DNA of 36,354 bases, from positions 1 through 36,354 of the IMG/VR virus record IMGVR_UViG_3300026105_000003. One strand, written 5' to 3'. Origin of the DNA: a virus (taxonomy: Duplodnaviria; Caudoviricetes). The notes beneath the pieces were generated by a model. The model did no database searches and was not told the origin of the DNA. It saw only the letters and a list, made by a program, of their open reading frames with translations. Made by a program: the position numbers and the translations under genes. Of the stretch, positions 12,021 to 26,393 are shown one piece after another (within the stretch, counting starts at the first letter, position 1; each line of letters begins with the position of its first letter).

Positions 12021-12103
12021 CGATTTACAAAGTGACAAAGGTACTTGACAGGCAAAACTGAAAATTGGCCTGAGTTGTGTGAGTGGCACGCTAAGGCTGA
12101 GCA

Positions 12104-12167
12104 CGCGCGCGATTTTTGGGGGTACCCCCTGCCAATTAGAAAAAAGAAAAAACGGGGCCGGGGGGTC
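12104..12167. other. Candidate packaging initiation / genome terminus region
   Basis: Perfect palindrome GGGGGTACCCCC (12118-12129), an A-tract and GGGGCCGGGGGG, just upstream of terS. Confidence 0.4.
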
Positions 12168-12275
12168 TAATTGTAAAAGGCGTTTGCCATTTAATTATTA
12201 AAACGCAAAACATCTTTTGCTTTTACTTTGCGAAAGTGTAAATGGAATTGTCTGTAAAAGAGTTTTTACAATAGC

Positions 12276-12526
12276 TAAGTGATTGATTCTGCTGCAATTC
12301 TGGCACAAGTTGGAACAATTGGAACAGCATGTACTAGCATAAGTAATTGATTTCATTAAATTGTTACCATTGTTCCAATTGTTACCATAATTCTAGAGCT
12401 TATATGGGTTTTTGCTTGTAAAAGGTAATAGACAGTTTGCCAATAATGTAAAGCAAAAATATTTTACCTCTGAAAAAACGGTAACAATTGGAACAAGCCG
12501 AACAATCGTTGCGAATCAATAACTTA
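12276..12526. promoter_or_regulatory. Three IHF-consensus sites
   Basis: WATCAANNNNTTR matches: 12276-12288 (minus, AATCAATCACTTA), 12340-12352 (minus, AATCAATTACTTA) and 12514-12526 (plus, AATCAATAACTTA). Confidence 0.7.
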
Positions 12527-12567
12527 TAAGGTAACAAGCGAAATTGTAAATTGGAACAATTGGAACA
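12310..12567. repeat. Iteron-like 9-bp repeats (GGAACAA/GGTAACAA core) in both orientations around an AT-rich spacer; candidate replication origin
   Basis: TTGGAACAATTGGAACA 12310-12326; inverted TTGTTACCATTGTTCCAATTGTTACCA 12361-12387; GGTAACAATTGGAACAAGCCGAACAA 12480-12505; GGTAACAA and TTGGAACAATTGGAACA within 12530-12567. Confidence 0.7.
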
Positions 12568-12594
12568 CGGCGTCACCCCTTTTGGCATTATCTC

Positions 12595-12648
12595 CCTGGT
12601 TAGCGTGCAAGGGGTTGGACACTATGCCTGTTAGCGCCTAAGGGGTTG
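12595..12648 (+). repeat. Imperfect direct repeat GTTAGCG-NNN-AAGGGGTTG (2 copies)
   Basis: Copies at 12595-12617 and 12627-12648; related AAGG(G)GTT(T/A)GAC words near 12729 and 12785. Confidence 0.55.
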
Positions 12649-12796: not shown

Positions 12797-13018
12797 ATGA
12801 CCGACCGAAACCTTACATATCGCGAACAAGTGTTGCTCGATGTTGCGCAGTCCCATGGGCTGTTTCCAAGTGAAGCCAAAGTGCTGCCAGTGTTGCTCGA
12901 TGCAATCGGCCGCAAATTGCAGCTGGACGAAAGCGAAACGCTATGGCACTTGAGCACCAACAAAGAATTGTCAGCATACGCTGCCAGCGTAGCGCGTGAC
13001 GTAGCGTTGACCGGGTAA
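12797..13018 (+). CDS. Early hypothetical protein (73 aa)
   Basis: ATG at 12797 after AAGGGG RBS (MTDRNLTYREQ...). Confidence 0.65.
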   Translation: MTDRNLTYREQVLLDVAQSHGLFPSEAKVLPVLLDAIGRKLQLDESETLWHLSTNKELSAYAASVARDVALTG

Positions 13019-13027
13019 CAAGTAACC

Positions 13028-13047
13028 GGCGGGCCTGCGGGCCCGCC
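13028..13047 (+). other. GC-rich intergenic hairpin with cUGCGg (UNCG) tetraloop, no U-tract
   Basis: GGCGGGCC-TGCG-GGCCCGCC. Confidence 0.6.
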
Positions 13048-13283: not shown

Positions 13284-13454
13284 ATGATGACATATAGCGA
13301 AAGTGCCGAGGGAATCACGATCACGCGAAAGCGTGCCATTGTTGAATTGAAGCGCCACGGGGTGCCGGCCAGTGAATGGCCGATGTTCTACCGCGAAATG
13401 GGCTACGCGCCTGAATATGCCGCCAGTGACGTGCTGGCATGGCTGGGATACTAG
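13284..13454 (+). CDS. Early hypothetical protein (56 aa, not in ORF track)
   Basis: MMTYSESAEGITITRKRAIVELKRHG...DVLAWLGY; AAGGGG RBS; fills the gap between neighbours. Confidence 0.7.
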   Translation: MMTYSESAEGITITRKRAIVELKRHGVPASEWPMFYREMGYAPEYAASDVLAWLGY

Positions 13455-13465
13455 GAGAAGCAATC

Positions 13466-13891
13466 ATGATTAAGGAAAACATTCTTGAGACGCTCGAAAC
13501 ATTCGTGAACAAGCGCCCGGGCCTGGAGCCTGCAAATTATGCCGGCCGGCCGGATCTGTACCGGCAGGACTATCGTGAAGGTTGCCTGCAGCCGTTGCAG
13601 GACTTTCGCAAGCTGGTTGCGGCCGTGCGGTGGCGCGATAGCTTGAGCGCGGATGACCTGCGCGAAGCGTTCCGCCGGGCCTTTGGCGGCCGCCTTAGCT
13701 TGCGCGATGATGGCTCGCTTGAATATACCCCGGGCCAGTATGGCGCGGTAGAGTATCGGCGGGCCGCTTGCGCGGTGCTGGCAGATGCGTTGTGGAATCA
13801 TTGGGCGGTGAATACGCCGCTCGCGAGTTTTCGAGCAGTAACAGCCCGTCAGGAGCTAGGCCGGGGCGTTGCCCGCCGGTGGTTTAATTAG
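13466..13891 (+). CDS. Early hypothetical protein (141 aa)
   Basis: AGGAG RBS before ATG 13466 (MIKENILETL...RPGLEPANY...GQYGAVEYRRAAC). Confidence 0.75.
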   Translation: MIKENILETLETFVNKRPGLEPANYAGRPDLYRQDYREGCLQPLQDFRKLVAAVRWRDSLSADDLREAFRRAFGGRLSLRDDGSLEYTPGQYGAVEYRRAACAVLADALWNHWAVNTPLASFRAVTARQELGRGVARRWFN

Positions 13892-13954
13892 CCGAAACGC
13901 CCCAGCTGGGGCGTCTGGCCGGGATTGTCTCCGGTCACTGATGAGGCAGACAAC
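13891..13954 (+). ncRNA. Hammerhead ribozyme, type II, with pseudoknot
   Basis: GCC-GAAA-[CGCCCC-AGCU-GGGGCG]-UC^-[UGGCCGG...CCGGUCA]-CUGAUGA-GGC. Complete core; GUC cleavage triplet at 13913-13915; stem I loop UUGUCU pairs with downstream AGACAA. Confidence 0.9.
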
Positions 13955-13969
13955 ATGAGGGAAGCAACA

Positions 13970-14218
13970 ATGGCTAAGGTTGAGACGATGGAAGTGATTG
14001 CGCCCGCGCCATGGGCCACGGCGTTATTATATGGCGATTTTTCTGGACTTATTGATGACGCGGAATGTGAGCGCGTGGAGGCGTTCATGCGTGAATTACC
14101 CGGCCCGGTGGTAGACGTGGAAGGCGAACCGGAGTTCCGCACCGCATTCGGCACCGATACGCCGGATGAATTAGCGGGTGATTTTCTCACTTATACCGTT
14201 CACGTACTGGAGAATTGA
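13970..14218 (+). CDS. Early hypothetical acidic protein (82 aa)
   Basis: GAGGG RBS, ATG 13970; W-A-x-A-L-x-x-G-D-x-S-G-L motif familiar from phage early proteins. Confidence 0.7.
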   Translation: MAKVETMEVIAPAPWATALLYGDFSGLIDDAECERVEAFMRELPGPVVDVEGEPEFRTAFGTDTPDELAGDFLTYTVHVLEN

Positions 14219-14221
14219 GCA

Positions 14222-14896
14222 ATGACTGACAAAACACTGGCGGCGTTCGCCGCTGATATCGAGCGCGATGGTGTACGTAAGTACAAGAAAGCCGAAGCGC
14301 AAAACGCCCTGAAGGTGATCTTCGAGGATCACGCGGAGCAGCTATCCGATGACGCGCTGTTTCACTTGGGCCAGCTATACCGTCATTTCATGCCACCGGC
14401 ACCGCGTGCAGCGAAAACCCTGGAGCAATGGGTGGCGAAGGCGGCCGGCAAAAAAGACGTCCGTTACTATCTCAATTATGTATACGCGGATCCGGCCGGG
14501 TACCTGGTCGCAACCAATGGCCACCGTATGCACGTGATTGACTTGCCCGAAGGGATGCAGCCGGGCTATTACTGCCCGAAAACGCTGGAATGGCTCCACG
14601 ATGCCGAAGAATGGCGCTATCCTGATTGGCAACGGATTACGCCGCGGCCGGGCACGTTACCGCTGCAGCGCCTGGACGTTAGCACCTGGGCGGTGGATGA
14701 AATACAGGGGAAGGCAGTGTATCGGATGCCCGATGGCGTGGCGCTCAATAAGCAATACGTGGACGATGCGCTGGCCATGCCTGGCGAAGGCATGGCGCAA
14801 TTCTACCGCGAACAGGGCAACGAAAACGCGCCGGTGCTGTTTATGGGCACTGACTTGGAGCGCCCGCGGGCCGTCATCATGGTGATGCGCGGCTGA
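14222..14896 (+). CDS. DNA polymerase III beta-clamp-like protein (partial homolog)
   Basis: DVRYYLNYV...LVATNGHRM and YPDWQRI resemble DnaN central-domain motifs (D-x-R-Y-Y-L-N-G, V-A-T-D-G-H-R-L, F-P-D-Y-x-R-V). Confidence 0.65.
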   Translation: MTDKTLAAFAADIERDGVRKYKKAEAQNALKVIFEDHAEQLSDDALFHLGQLYRHFMPPAPRAAKTLEQWVAKAAGKKDVRYYLNYVYADPAGYLVATNGHRMHVIDLPEGMQPGYYCPKTLEWLHDAEEWRYPDWQRITPRPGTLPLQRLDVSTWAVDEIQGKAVYRMPDGVALNKQYVDDALAMPGEGMAQFYREQGNENAPVLFMGTDLERPRAVIMVMRG

Positions 14897-14905
14897 GACT
14901 AACGC

Positions 14906-14935
14906 GCCCGCTGCTACGGTGGCGGGCCTTTTATT
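14906..14935 (+). terminator. Rho-independent terminator
   Basis: GCCCGCTGC-TACG-GTGGCGGGC followed by CTTTTATT. Confidence 0.65.
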
Positions 14936-14945
14936 GGAGAATGAC

Positions 14946-15056
14946 ATGACGCCGAAACAATACGAGGACCGCGTGCGTGAATTGGAAGCCGAAGGTCTGA
15001 CCCGCTCGGATGCGCAGGGTGTAGCAGATGCCGAAGCAATGCAGGAGACCAAGTAA
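14946..15056 (+). CDS. Small hypothetical protein (36 aa, not in track)
   Basis: MTPKQYEDRVRELEAEGLTRSDAQGVADAEAMQETK; GGAG RBS; TAATG coupling to the next gene. Confidence 0.65.
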   Translation: MTPKQYEDRVRELEAEGLTRSDAQGVADAEAMQETK

Positions 15057-22641: not shown

Positions 22642-25245
22642 ATGCTGACAGCAATAGTATCCATCGGCTCCGCTGGAGTCAAACATTACTGGTATCAAGA
22701 TCGGAACGAGGCGTTTCGTGCTGCCCTGGCAATGTCAAAGCAGGGTGGGCATGGCGACTTGTACTGGTCGATGGCCGAATTCACTGACCGCAAGCGCAGT
22801 CAGGACAATGCAGCGCAGTTGAAAAACTTCTGGCTGGATCTGGACTGCGGTGACGGCAAGGGCTATGCCACCAAAGCTGAGGCGCTGAAGGCGTTTATTC
22901 AGTCTGGTTTGCCTGAGCCGACAGTTGTGGTCGATAGCGGCAACGGGCTGCATCTTTACTGGACACTGGATAAGCCGGTGCCAGCTGAGGATTGGCAGCC
23001 GGTGGCCGAGCACTTCAAGCGTGCGTGTATCACCAAGGGACTGGATGCCGACCATGCCATAACGGCAGACGCGGCACGTATTCTGCGAGTGCCTGGCACC
23101 CAGAACATGAAGGATCCCGAGAACCCGCAGCCGGTCAAGCTACTGCGCCGCTCGGGTACGAAGTACACGCTCGAAGGGTTTCAGCAGACACTGCCCTCGG
23201 TTGGGCCGCTGCGTGACGCAAAGCCGCAGAAAGAGCCTGACGAGTGGAGCGTGGACGCAGCTGATCTGCCACCGGCGCAGATAGAGAATGTGCTGCAGGG
23301 CTGCAAGCAAGTGCGTGAGGCAGCTAAGGTGCAAAGCGCTGGCATTGCCGAGCCGTACTGGCGTGCCGTGCTGTCGGTAGTTTACCGCTGCGATGGTGGC
23401 GAGGATCTGATTCATAAAATCAGCCAAGGTGACCCCAGGTACGACGCTGCAGAGACTGACCGCAAGGCGGAGAACACCGCTGGCCCGGCAACCTGCGAGC
23501 ATTTCTCGGCAGTTAATCCCGGTGGGTGTGCAGGCTGCCCGTTTGCTGGTGCGGTGCGCTCGCCTATTTCTATTCCTGCACCTGCGCCGCAGCCGGAGGA
23601 CAGCGAGGAAGCGCCGGAGCGCCCGAGCAAAGTTAACGACTGGCACATTACGGCCAAGGGCGTTTACAAGGCGATGGAAGCTGACGATGGCAGCATCGAA
23701 AAACAGTTTGCCTCGCTCACGCCTGTGTATGGCGAGACGTTCCGCAGCCGCCGTGGCGAGACTGACATGGACGCCGATGATGCCAAGCTGCTTTTGGTTT
23801 GGCTGCGCCCGGATGGCCGCTGGCGTCGCACCCTCATGCCGCTGTCGCTGATTGGCAGCCCGACAAAAATGCTGGAGTGGGCTGGTGGCCAAGGGCTTGC
23901 CACGCTAATACCCAACGCGAAGGTATGGAATATGTATATCAGTGAGCTTACAAATAAGCTGCTGGCCGAGAGACAGGTGACCGAATACTATGCCCGACTT
24001 GGCTGGCACGCCGACGATTCAGAGTTTGTGCTTGGCACCCATAAGGTTACAGCTGACGGACTGGAGGCCACGACCATCGAGCGCAACGGGCCGCTGTCGC
24101 AGCTGGCACCGCAGGGTGATCTTGAAGAATGGAAGGCAGGCATTGATCTGCTCAACCGCCCAGGGCTAGAAAAACACCAGTTCTGCATCCTTGCTGGCTT
24201 TGGCTCGCCGCTACTGCAGCTGATGGACGTTGCTGGTGCGGCTATTTCATTGGCTGGTGCGTCTGGCCGAGGCAAAACGCTGGCTGCGCGTGCCGCGCTG
24301 TCGATCTATGGCCAGCCTGATGCTCTGTTTCAGTCTGCGGATGCCACCAAGAACTCCACGGACATGCACCTTGCAACGCTGCACTCGGTGCCGTATCTGA
24401 TGGACGAGGTGACTAGCCTTGCAGATAAACAGGTCGGTAACCTGCTCTACATGATTGCAAACGGCAGGGGCAAGGACTCGCTGAACCGTGCCAGGGACTG
24501 GCGCACCGGCGGCAACTGGCGGCTGGTAGCATTCCTTACTACCAACAATCCGATCATGGAGGCGAACCAGACGCACCTGACAGAAGCGCAGCGTAACCGG
24601 GCCATCGAGCTAATCATCGACACGGCTGTGCCATCGGATATAGCAGCTCAGATTTACCAAGCCACCAGTAAACACTATGGGCTGGCGGCTGCGCAGTTTA
24701 TGCAGTACGTGATCCAGAACCGCGATGAAGTCACCAAGCTCACGCACGAATGCGTGAACAAGGTAAAGGGCGCTTTCGAGGGACAGGACGCGCAGCGTTT
24801 TGGCGTCTGGGCACTGGCTGCTGCACTGGCAGGCGGGATGATTGCTCGCAAGCTGGAGCTCATTAAGTTTGACCCGTGGGAGATCGTGCAGGAGATCGTG
24901 CCGAACCTGCAGGAGCAGGGCGAGCGCACCATGACACCCGAGGAGCAGTTTGTTGAGGCGGTGCGAGAGTGGCTGACTGAGAACTCAGATCGCGTGACCA
25001 CGACGCTGAACGGTGGCCTTGGCTTTGCCGATGACCCGATTGCCAAGCTGGATGGGCCTGACATTTTTGTGCATAGCACCCGGTTTAGGAAGGCGCTGCG
25101 TGAGCGTCAGGTTAGCCTACAAATGCTGCGGCGCTACCTTGGCAAGTACGGTGAGACGAACATCAAGCAACGGCTGTCCAAAGGCACACCGCCTGTCACC
25201 TGCATCCGCTTGCCGAGAGAGTGGATCTACGGCGAGGAAGATTAG
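22642..25245 (+). CDS. Primase-helicase (RepB/AEP-type primase + DUF927-like region + P-loop helicase)
   Basis: W-L-D-L-D, V-D-S-G-N-G-L-H-L-Y-W, R-I-L-R-V-P-G-T; Cys cluster C...C-x-x-C-P; L-G-W; Walker A GASGRGKT; Walker B YLMDE. Confidence 0.9.
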   Translation: MLTAIVSIGSAGVKHYWYQDRNEAFRAALAMSKQGGHGDLYWSMAEFTDRKRSQDNAAQLKNFWLDLDCGDGKGYATKAEALKAFIQSGLPEPTVVVDSGNGLHLYWTLDKPVPAEDWQPVAEHFKRACITKGLDADHAITADAARILRVPGTQNMKDPENPQPVKLLRRSGTKYTLEGFQQTLPSVGPLRDAKPQKEPDEWSVDAADLPPAQIENVLQGCKQVREAAKVQSAGIAEPYWRAVLSVVYRCDGGEDLIHKISQGDPRYDAAETDRKAENTAGPATCEHFSAVNPGGCAGCPFAGAVRSPISIPAPAPQPEDSEEAPERPSKVNDWHITAKGVYKAMEADDGSIEKQFASLTPVYGETFRSRRGETDMDADDAKLLLVWLRPDGRWRRTLMPLSLIGSPTKMLEWAGGQGLATLIPNAKVWNMYISELTNKLLAERQVTEYYARLGWHADDSEFVLGTHKVTADGLEATTIERNGPLSQLAPQGDLEEWKAGIDLLNRPGLEKHQFCILAGFGSPLLQLMDVAGAAISLAGASGRGKTLAARAALSIYGQPDALFQSADATKNSTDMHLATLHSVPYLMDEVTSLADKQVGNLLYMIANGRGKDSLNRARDWRTGGNWRLVAFLTTNNPIMEANQTHLTEAQRNRAIELIIDTAVPSDIAAQIYQATSKHYGLAAAQFMQYVIQNRDEVTKLTHECVNKVKGAFEGQDAQRFGVWALAAALAGGMIARKLELIKFDPWEIVQEIVPNLQEQGERTMTPEEQFVEAVREWLTENSDRVTTTLNGGLGFADDPIAKLDGPDIFVHSTRFRKALRERQVSLQMLRRYLGKYGETNIKQRLSKGTPPVTCIRLPREWIYGEED

Positions 25246-26393
25246 TCGGCTAGCATTTCGGGCGTCAGAACCTGGCGTCCGACGTAGCCAAAACGTGAGT
25301 GGTAAGTAATCACCTGCGCTTGGCGTGCCGCGCTATACCCGTGCCGGCTTGCATACGAGTCACGAGCGGATAGGGTGCCATGCTGCTCGACTGTCATCAG
25401 GCCGCTTTCTTTCGAGGCCCAGTGGTGCAGGTGGCCAAGGTGGCAGTAGGAATGCTTGGTGCGGCCAAAGAGCTCACGGAACTCCGATGCCATGGCACGG
25501 TCGATCTCGTCGATCTTTTTCAGGTGGCCATGGTGAAAGAACAAGCTGGTCTGGCCATGCTCGATTGAATAAAACGGTGCTGGTGACTGGTCAATAATCA
25601 GGCGCGGCTGGTTGCGGTATCGGTCAGCAAAAGACTCACGCAGCCAGATCTCTGTGGTTTCGTCGTGGTTGCCCTCAGCCATAATCACTTCGACAGTGAC
25701 GTACTTGGTGAGCAGCATTTCGATGATCTGCCGGGTTAGGCGCACGGCAATTCGCACCAGTTTAGGAAAGCGCGTGTCCGTATCCAGCTGATGTTTGCTG
25801 GTGGGCGTCACGCTCTCGATGCCATCAAAGTGCAGGAAGTCACCCATCTGTGCGAACACTGCACGGTGGGCAGGCGGTGCCCGGTCAATCGCAGCGGCGA
25901 AGAACTTCAGCACCATCTCTTCTGCGATGCTTGCATCCCAGTCCTGCCCGGTTTCTTCGCCCCATGCCAGCATTCCAATGTGCGCGTCGGTCATCACAAA
26001 CAGATTTAGCAGCTCGTTGTTGTGCCGCACCTTCTGCTTAATTTTCGGCAGCGGCTGCAAATCTTCTTTCAGCGCCTCGATGGCAGCTTTTAGCTGATCG
26101 TACTGTGCCTGCTTGTCGCGGTCAGTCTTGTACCATTCGAGCTTGTGCTCACCCGTGCTGGGGTTCCATAGCACCGAGCGGCCCTTAAAGATTTCATCGT
26201 CACGCTGCTCAAACTGCTGCGCCGCTTCCATCTTTTGCTCTAGTGTTTTGCCGTCCCGCATCCGCTCCAGCCTGCGCTGCAAGGTGCGAAGGTTAATGCC
26301 AAGTAGGGCGGCTGCCCCTTCCTGAGTGCCAGTCTGCTCAATGGCAGCGAGGATCTGCGAGTTGCTTATTCCCCGTGGCCCAAGACTACTCAT
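25242..26393 (-). CDS. Calcineurin-like metallophosphoesterase with N-terminal HTH
   Basis: D-A-H-I-G, G-D-F-L-H, G-N-H-D, H-H-G-H and G-H-L-H-H motifs; N-terminal AAALLGINLRTLQRRL HTH. Confidence 0.85.
   Translation of the reverse strand: MSSLGPRGISNSQILAAIEQTGTQEGAAALLGINLRTLQRRLERMRDGKTLEQKMEAAQQFEQRDDEIFKGRSVLWNPSTGEHKLEWYKTDRDKQAQYDQLKAAIEALKEDLQPLPKIKQKVRHNNELLNLFVMTDAHIGMLAWGEETGQDWDASIAEEMVLKFFAAAIDRAPPAHRAVFAQMGDFLHFDGIESVTPTSKHQLDTDTRFPKLVRIAVRLTRQIIEMLLTKYVTVEVIMAEGNHDETTEIWLRESFADRYRNQPRLIIDQSPAPFYSIEHGQTSLFFHHGHLKKIDEIDRAMASEFRELFGRTKHSYCHLGHLHHWASKESGLMTVEQHGTLSARDSYASRHGYSAARQAQVITYHSRFGYVGRQVLTPEMLAD

What the first reader, a model, noticed from the sequence alone, without database searches (positions are those of the whole stretch)
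13891..13954. Self-cleaving hammerhead ribozyme splitting the early operon
Seen: all core nucleotides (CUGAUGA 13938-13944, GAAA 13894-13897, GUC 13913-13915), stems I and III closed, short open stem II (GCC/GGC), and a 6-bp pseudoknot between the stem I loop (UUGUCU) and AGACAA. It begins on the last base of the upstream stop codon and ends 15 nt before the next ATG. Knowledge: pseudoknotted type II hammerheads are known from bacterial and phage sequences, but their role is unresolved; cleavage leaves a 5'-OH that resists RNase E 5'-end-dependent decay. Inference: it replaces T7-style RNase III processing and makes a stabilised mRNA from 13916 to the terminator near 14935 encoding the 82-aa acidic protein and the beta-clamp-like protein. 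A ribosome terminating at 13889-13891 would cover stem II/GAAA and could gate cleavage.
Basis: partly seen in the sequence, partly recalled or inferred. Interest (0 to 1): 0.8.

Follow-up and report, generated by a model that had tools for sequence, protein, structure and literature searches.

The report
Phage hammerhead ribozyme between early genes
A 64-base stretch wedged between two small genes of an uncultured phage matches a known self-cutting RNA family (type II hammerhead) and likely cuts the multi-gene message in two; this layout has been described in phages since 2011, so it is a sound but ordinary find.

Summary
Rfam RF02276 (Hammerhead_II) matches 13890-13955 at 63.4 bits (cut-off 37) and is the only RNA-family hit in this 36.4-kb podovirus-like genome. 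All core bases are canonical, and the loop-I/3'-tail pseudoknot covaries in related copies. It is a new member of a known kind: Perreault 2011 described such ribozymes between prophage genes and proposed polycistron processing. Five related phage contigs keep the ribozyme in this region while the genes on either side change, once with ArdC upstream. It therefore behaves as an operon-punctuation module, not a controller of these two genes. Sitting flush against the upstream stop is a general rule: 138 of 177 viral copies lie within 8 nt, against about 5% in controls. Terminators keep away from stops, but ordinary gene junctions are nearly as tight, so ribosome gating is possible but not shown. 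Best reading: likely constitutive cleavage after C13915, leaving a hairpin on each new end. Cleavage, stabilisation and the 13916-14935 message are untested. This scan has reported the same arrangement in other genomes.

The parts
13466..13891 (+). Upstream gene, 141 aa, unnamed widespread phage family; its TAG overlaps stem II by one base
   Evidence: ORF (one search lists it from an earlier ATG at 13439, 150 aa); 113 database proteins including itself; no Pfam or PHROG family at useful E
13891..13953 (+). Type II hammerhead ribozyme with loop-I/3'-tail pseudoknot
   Evidence: Rfam RF02276 63.4 bits; covariation
13891..13893 (+). Stem II 5' strand GCC (pairs with GGC 13945-13947)
   Evidence: sequence; 22 of 22 paired at all three positions, one compensatory position
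13894..13914 (+). Core GAAA and stem III hairpin (7 bp, -13.3 kcal/mol); would be the 3' end of the upstream product
13915..13916 (+). Predicted cleavage site, 3' of C13915 (GUC triplet)
   Evidence: position by hammerhead consensus (alignment); not assayed
13916..13937 (+). Stem I hairpin (-11.2 kcal/mol) with pseudoknot loop; would be the 5' end of the downstream product
13938..13944 (+). Catalytic core CUGAUGA
   Evidence: alignment
13948..13953 (+). Pseudoknot tail AGACAA, complementary to loop UUGUCU 13925-13930
   Evidence: three central pairs formed in 21 of 22 sequences, two of them with 8 and 10 double changes
13957..13962 (+). Shine-Dalgarno-like GAGGGA for the ATG at 13970
   Evidence: sequence
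13970..14218 (+). Downstream gene, 82 aa, acidic; weak lead to DUF6926
   Evidence: 9 other database proteins at 74-87%; Atlas score 0.76 to DUF6926 (lead only); distant homologues E 0.002-0.05 to PF21977
14222..14896 (+). 224-aa protein with a beta-sliding-clamp-like segment
   Evidence: weak fold support
14906..14935 (+). Terminator-like hairpin (9 bp, -17.3 kcal/mol) with CUUUUAUU tail; probably leaky
   Evidence: next same-strand gene starts at 14946

Best explanation
This is a type II hammerhead ribozyme motif in the gap between two genes of the phage's probable early operon, and it likely cuts the shared transcript after C13915 largely constitutively, acting as portable operon punctuation. 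The cut would leave the upstream piece with its stop codon, a 7-bp GC-rich hairpin (stem III) and a 2',3'-cyclic phosphate. The downstream piece would start with a 5'-OH and a terminal hairpin (stem I) ahead of an intact ribosome-binding site. Both ends would resist end-dependent decay, so the downstream genes would get a uniform, RiboJ-like leader whatever gene lies upstream. The module stays in this part of the operon while accessory genes (141-aa family, ArdC, 82-aa, clamp-like) are swapped around it. It abuts the stop codon mainly because nothing needs to lie between them: unlike a terminator, it can fold after the ribosome has left. Shown: motif, structure, covariation, placement, gene swapping. 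Inferred: cleavage in vivo, co-transcription, product stability, the reason for flush placement.
For: Rfam match with canonical core. Pseudoknot and stems covary: score 0.537 vs 0.156 shuffled, 0 of 500 shuffles, slid controls at most 0.114; stems I and III in 57 sequences. Perreault 2011 (PMC3088659): 14 of 18 consensus hammerheads tested were active; tandem prophage copies cut about 2-kb polycistronic RNAs in vitro and, for A. tumefaciens, in E. coli; a halovirus transcript 5' end maps within 3 nt of a hammerhead site. Five distinct related contigs (L259, L336, L416, L421, L434) keep the ribozyme with different neighbours; ArdC lies upstream in L416. Contigs from lake and saltern runs join the ribozyme and RBS to other gene starts. 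A near-identical stem III copy sits after a stop codon in the unrelated Mu-like phage B23. 138 of 177 viral copies have sense genes on both sides. RiboJ raises mRNA about twofold and protein two- to tenfold in E. coli (PMC6206723).
Against: No cleavage or RNA data for this copy. The operon's promoter was not found (3 sigma-70-like sites vs 3.1 expected), so co-transcription is inferred from gene spacing. In pseudoknot-free folding models the naked upstream coding sequence competes with stem I (probability 0.07-0.42), though no more than shuffled flanks do. RNase E direct entry ignores the 5' end (PMC4191395 abstract). Type I hammerhead-like elements, which would leave no 5' hairpin, fill the same slot in 10 of 119 junctions behind homologues of the upstream gene, so the hairpin-cap benefit is not universal. 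106 of those 119 junctions show no hammerhead. The host is unknown.
Confidence: 0.6

Rival explanations
1. Translation-gated ribozyme: a ribosome terminating at TAG 13889-13891 covers stem II, GAAA and the start of stem III, so cleavage reports on translation of the upstream gene (blocked while it is busy or stalled, allowed when it is free).
For: 138 of 177 viral type II copies start within 8 nt of a stop, against 8 of 177 antisense and 5.1% random. 113 of 166 start within 2 nt, against 1 of 83 terminator-like hairpins. Ribosomes cover about 10 nt past the A site and repress terminators a few bases from a stop (PMC4824070 section 10). 5' slack (median 1 nt) is smaller than 3' slack (6.5-12 nt).
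Against: Ordinary junctions are nearly as tight: SD starts within 2 nt after the stop, or earlier, in 131 of 237, against 113 of 168 for ribozymes. The offset is spread over 1-8 nt, not a fixed register. Upstream genes are unrelated to each other, with no sign of a sensing leader peptide. No conserved alternative helix. A ribozyme has no kinetic window and can refold after ribosome release (inference).
Confidence: 0.13
2. Differential decay: the cut serves to shut down one side. It uncouples the earliest (anti-defence) genes from the rest and lets one piece decay quickly, rather than stabilising the downstream message.
For: Reviewed as an open possibility (PMC6765202 section 13); glmS cleavage leads to decay there. 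There is one ribozyme per contig in this clade, after ArdC or the 141-aa gene and upstream of the 36-aa/61-aa/PolA block.
Against: Both products would end in stable hairpins (-13.3 and -11.2 kcal/mol). The downstream SD is kept, and 165 of 177 copies have an SD-led ORF downstream.
Confidence: 0.14
3. The element is mainly a repeated DNA spacer (stop-ribozyme-RBS) that serves as a recombination joint for shuffling small accessory genes; cleavage is tolerated but of little consequence.
For: Near-identical copies in unrelated phages. Several copies per locus in 29 of 133 loci (overlapping loci of one contig count separately). Joints at the ribozyme/RBS in relatives.
Against: The catalytic core is invariant while stems change with compensation, which is selection on RNA structure, not on DNA identity. 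This genome has a single copy.
Confidence: 0.1
4. This copy is inactive or misfolded in context.
For: 4 of 18 consensus hammerheads were inactive in Perreault 2011. Competing helices are predicted with the upstream flank and with the downstream start region.
Against: Perfect core, full pseudoknot, conservation in relatives. The models omit pseudoknot and tertiary energy.
Confidence: 0.03

Closest known systems
Type II hammerhead ribozymes, Rfam RF02276 (Perreault et al. 2011, PMC3088659)
   Same: Permutation with open stem II, canonical core, loop-I/3'-tail pseudoknot, location between phage genes; neighbours include antirestriction genes (ardA in the paper, ArdC in relative L416).
   Different: Single copy rather than a cluster; lytic-looking podovirus with PolA and no integrase among the 38 ORFs scanned; 3-bp stem II with a GUC/GAC pseudoknot core where the Rfam consensus has GGu/GCC. 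No functional difference is shown.
HHphage of haloviruses HF1/HF2 (described in PMC3088659 discussion)
   Same: A hammerhead a few bases upstream of a start codon in the early region of a dsDNA virus; the transcript 5' end was mapped near the cleavage site.
   Different: HHphage has a variant core and an archaeal host; this copy has the consensus core.
RiboJ insulator (synthetic; PMC6206723)
   Same: Ribozyme cleavage gives a fixed 5' end with a hairpin in front of the RBS.
   Different: Engineered and placed after a promoter; here natural and placed after a stop codon inside an operon.
RNase III processing of the T7 early transcript (recalled, no call)
   Same: Intergenic RNA structures cut a polycistronic early message.
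   Different: Protein-catalysed, leaving 5'-phosphate ends; this phage shows no T7-type RNA polymerase among the 38 ORFs scanned.

Membership tests
Hammerhead ribozyme type II (RF02276) | Score above the Rfam gathering threshold over the whole model | tested here: met
   63.4 vs 37 bits, positions 1-66 of 66
Hammerhead ribozyme type II (RF02276) | Core CUGANGA, GAAA and NUH triplet | tested here: met
   CUGAUGA 13938-13944, GAAA 13894-13897, GUC 13913-13915
Hammerhead ribozyme type II (RF02276) | Stems I and III closed by loops, stem II open | tested here: met
Hammerhead ribozyme type II (RF02276) | Loop-I / 3'-tail pseudoknot | tested here: met
   5-6 bp possible here; three central pairs formed in 21 of 22 sequences with compensatory changes at two
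Hammerhead ribozyme type II (RF02276) | Mg2+-dependent self-cleavage 3' of the NUH triplet | not testable with these tools
   needs an in vitro assay
Intergenic phage hammerheads that process polycistrons (Perreault 2011) | Lies between same-strand genes in a phage genome | tested here: met
Intergenic phage hammerheads that process polycistrons (Perreault 2011) | Several copies flanking single genes | tested here: not met
   one copy only in this genome; it works like that group but is not a cluster
Translation-controlled RNA switch (attenuator-like) | Conserved alternative helix or leader peptide coupling translation to the RNA fold | tested here: not met
   stop-region/start-region pairing of 6 bp in 2 of 119 (null mean 0.5; mean length 2.80 vs 2.73, sd 0.06); upstream flank no more disruptive than shuffles, n=139, p=0.12. 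Simple steric gating is not excluded.

The most novel reading that the evidence does not exclude
Phage hammerheads are built flush onto stop codons so that the terminating ribosome gates them: a general, ligand-free way of coupling mRNA cutting to translation of the upstream (often anti-defence) gene. Cleavage would switch on when ribosomes thin out or off when termination stalls. The placement rule is strong (138 of 177) and opposite to that of terminators; I did not find it stated in the papers searched.
Probability: 0.13. Interest if true: 0.7.

Novelty: new member of a known kind. Interest (0 to 1): 0.2.

Why it matters
The role of self-cleaving ribozymes in bacteria and phages is still called largely elusive (PMC6765202 section 13). 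This copy does not settle that, but it is a clean single-copy test case. Relatives with and without the ribozyme beside the same genes (L259 and L336 against L257 and L258) give natural controls. The measured stop-flush rule makes ribosome gating testable by moving one stop codon.

Tried and rejected
Chance match: rejected. A second ribozyme that would release a single-gene or circularisable RNA: none found. A switch helix UUAGCC 13888-13893 / GGCUAA 13972-13977, which wins over stem II in pseudoknot-free models (probability 0.72-0.9): 6-bp pairing in only 2 of 119 copies, one being this window, so treated as coincidence. Upstream coding sequence as an anti-ribozyme strand: 35% of 60 shuffles were as disruptive, it is absent in five relatives, and there is no trend over 139 copies (the first attempt, timed out). 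A fixed link to either neighbour gene: rejected. Promoter scan uninformative. The search for related loci with the single 224-aa protein found nothing. No RNA holder listed, so expression and ends could not be examined. The single-sequence structure model was poor (pLDDT 54); the alignment model was moderate (67) with no fold hit at E<=0.001. The first plain-junction control (n=352) used a loose rule and was replaced. The genome-contig scan gave five matches in MAG contigs and did not identify a host. Literature searches listed no paper on stop-flush placement of phage hammerheads, and 'stop codon' does not occur in the main text of PMC3088659. Its supplementary figures were not read and may show the placement; most subscription papers are outside the library.

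Full report
Observation. Rfam RF02276 Hammerhead_II matches 13890-13955 on the + strand over the whole model at 63.4 bits (gathering 37, E 4.8e-11), and nothing else in the genome matches any Rfam family, even at E<=5. Folding 13890-13955 gives stems I, II and III as drawn. U13930 is claimed by both stem I and the pseudoknot, so the fold is 8+5 or 7+6 bp.

Setting. The window is the whole held genome, 36,354 bases in one contig. Of 38 ORFs scanned against PHROGs, the minus-strand block holds terminase, head-tail adaptor, major head, tail and lysis genes. The plus-strand block holds small unknown genes followed by a family A DNA polymerase, exonuclease, helicase and primase; none matched an RNA polymerase or integrase family. 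The major head protein is at most 38% identical to cultured phages (Pelagibacter, Methylophilales, Vibrio). The ribozyme lies among the first small plus-strand genes, which I take to be the early region (inference). The host is unknown. Partial holders of the region are lake, aquatic and saltern metagenomes.

Structure support. In 57 copies with the same stem I span, stems I and III were 96.6% paired with covariation 0.78 against 0.17 shuffled. These copies had been filtered for stems, so this is partly by construction. The pseudoknot was not filtered for. In 22 of the 57, picked by eye for the 3-bp stem II register (which fixes the first two tail bases), its three central pairs formed in 21 of 22 sequences, two of them with 8 and 10 double changes. 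The outer pairs formed in 12, 17 and 14 of 22. Close relatives carry A in place of T13926, so the conserved pseudoknot is about 3-4 bp.

Is it tied to its neighbours? No. Of 119 distinct 3' junctions behind homologues of the 141-aa upstream gene (the window's own contig included), my pattern found a type II hammerhead in 2 (window, L259). L336 has a third, with one extra U after the core, confirmed by Rfam. Ten junctions carry a type I hammerhead-like element directly after the stop (8 flagged by pattern, 2 by eye; the 4 sent to Rfam did not reach gathering). The closest homologue, L257 (73%), has no ribozyme and carries an 82-aa homologue further on without one. Five related contigs keep the ribozyme with changed neighbours: 141-aa then 36-aa gene (L259, L336); ArdC then 82-aa (L416; ArdC by Pfam); a protein with the same ends as that ArdC then a 54-aa gene (L421); a 116-aa then a 162-aa gene near PolA, 36-aa and 61-aa homologues (L434). 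Contigs in related metagenomes join the ribozyme and RBS directly to the clamp-like gene or to other gene starts. A copy with a nearly identical stem III follows a stop codon in the Mu-like Alteromonadaceae phage B23. The element is thus a portable module. In L259 and L336 it directly precedes the homologue of the gene at 14946, so the 82-aa, clamp-like and terminator-like block is variable. The proposed 13916-14935 message may exist here but cannot be the conserved purpose.

The stop-codon placement. From 303 unique pattern hits, 184 passed stem and flank filters and 179 were non-redundant; dropping the window and B23 left 177. In 138 of 177 a stop codon closing an ORF of at least 45 codons ends within 8 nt of GAAA (91 within 4 nt), against 8 of 177 on the antisense strand and 5.1% at random sense positions. 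165 of 177 have an SD-led ORF downstream, median 28 nt from the core. Terminator-like hairpins in the fetched loci lie a median 26 nt from the stop (1 of 83 within 2 nt), against a median of 1 nt for ribozymes (113 of 166 within 2 nt). This fits the known repression of terminators by ribosomes near stops (PMC4824070, abstract and section 10). But at 237 ordinary junctions the next SD begins within 2 nt after the stop, or before it, in 131 (55%), against 113 of 168 (67%) for ribozymes (simple ORF caller). So the ribozyme does not avoid the ribosome, but tight packing can explain the position without gating. Tests for a designed switch were negative.

Mechanism. Most likely the RNA folds once the terminating ribosome has left and cuts after C13915. 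The type II permutation leaves stem III (-13.3 kcal/mol) on the 3' end of the upstream piece and stem I (-11.2) at the very 5' end of the downstream piece. Established hammerhead chemistry gives a cyclic phosphate and a 5'-OH. A stabilising effect is inferred from RiboJ (PMC6206723, abstract and Discussion) and from recalled knowledge of RNase E 5'-monophosphate sensing. It is tempered by RNase E direct entry (PMC4191395, abstract) and by type I-like elements in the same slot. No step after the sequence analysis was tested.

Known work. Perreault et al. 2011 (PMC3088659; I read passages, section 6 and the first part of the Discussion, not the supplements) introduced natural type II hammerheads, the pseudoknot, the prophage context, the polycistron-processing idea, the ardA link and the halovirus early-gene case. 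Weinberg et al. 2019 (PMC6765202; passages and section 13) repeat the idea and call the role unresolved. PMC13725137 (abstract only) shows ribozyme cleavage aiding translation initiation in RNA viruses of fungi and plants, a different setting. Earlier notes of this scan report the same arrangement, including the stop-flush rule, in other genomes; these are unchecked leads, and my counts were made before reading them.

Verdict. A real, well-supported type II hammerhead and a new member of a known kind. Interest 0.2. The bolder reading, ribosome-gated cleavage as a general design, is not excluded (about 0.13) and has a simple test.

Noticed in passing
L336:1929-1993, L416:2423-2487, L422 near 610, L435 (minus strand): Close relatives of this ribozyme carry one extra base between the core CUGAYGA and stem II; L336 and L416 still score above Rfam gathering.
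   Followed up: partly
L299, L311, L318, L363, L369, L389, L392, L403, L407, L412, directly after the stop of the 141-aa homologue: Type I hammerhead-like elements starting at the first base after the stop codon; the four tested were below Rfam gathering.
   Followed up: partly
L277, L294, L296, L345, L357; L278, L292; L273, L275, L291, L335, L368, after the stop of the 141-aa homologue: Other folded-looking elements of about 55-70 nt fill the same stop-to-RBS slot; no Rfam hit in the seven tested (L273, L275, L277, L278, L291, L335, L368). They could be terminators, RNase III sites or undescribed ribozymes.
   Followed up: partly
L417 and L418, about 75 nt upstream of position 2501: Long irregular hairpin-like sequence, by eye resembling an RNase III substrate, in front of distant homologues of the 82-aa gene; no Rfam hit.
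   Followed up: partly
L022/L023, L137-L139, L148/L149, L194-L198, L423, L426: Viral contigs with arrays of about 5 to 12 type II hammerheads, one per small gene.
   Followed up: partly
window 13028-13047: Very stable hairpin (8 bp, -19.6 kcal/mol) 10 nt after the stop at 13018; terminator-like on the minus strand, no U tract on the plus strand.
   Followed up: no
window 12100-12620: AT-rich stretch between the divergent gene blocks with several repeats of TTGTTCCAA/TTGGAACAA in both orientations; possible origin, packaging or regulator sites.
   Followed up: no
window 14222-14896: Protein with an N-terminal helical part and a beta-clamp-like segment, a family that other phages annotate as DNA polymerase III beta subunit or RusA-like; accessory in this clade.
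   Followed up: partly
window 25242-26393 (minus strand): A 383-aa 'DNA repair exonuclease' family gene (phrog_704) ends the late block right after holin and amidase.
   Followed up: no
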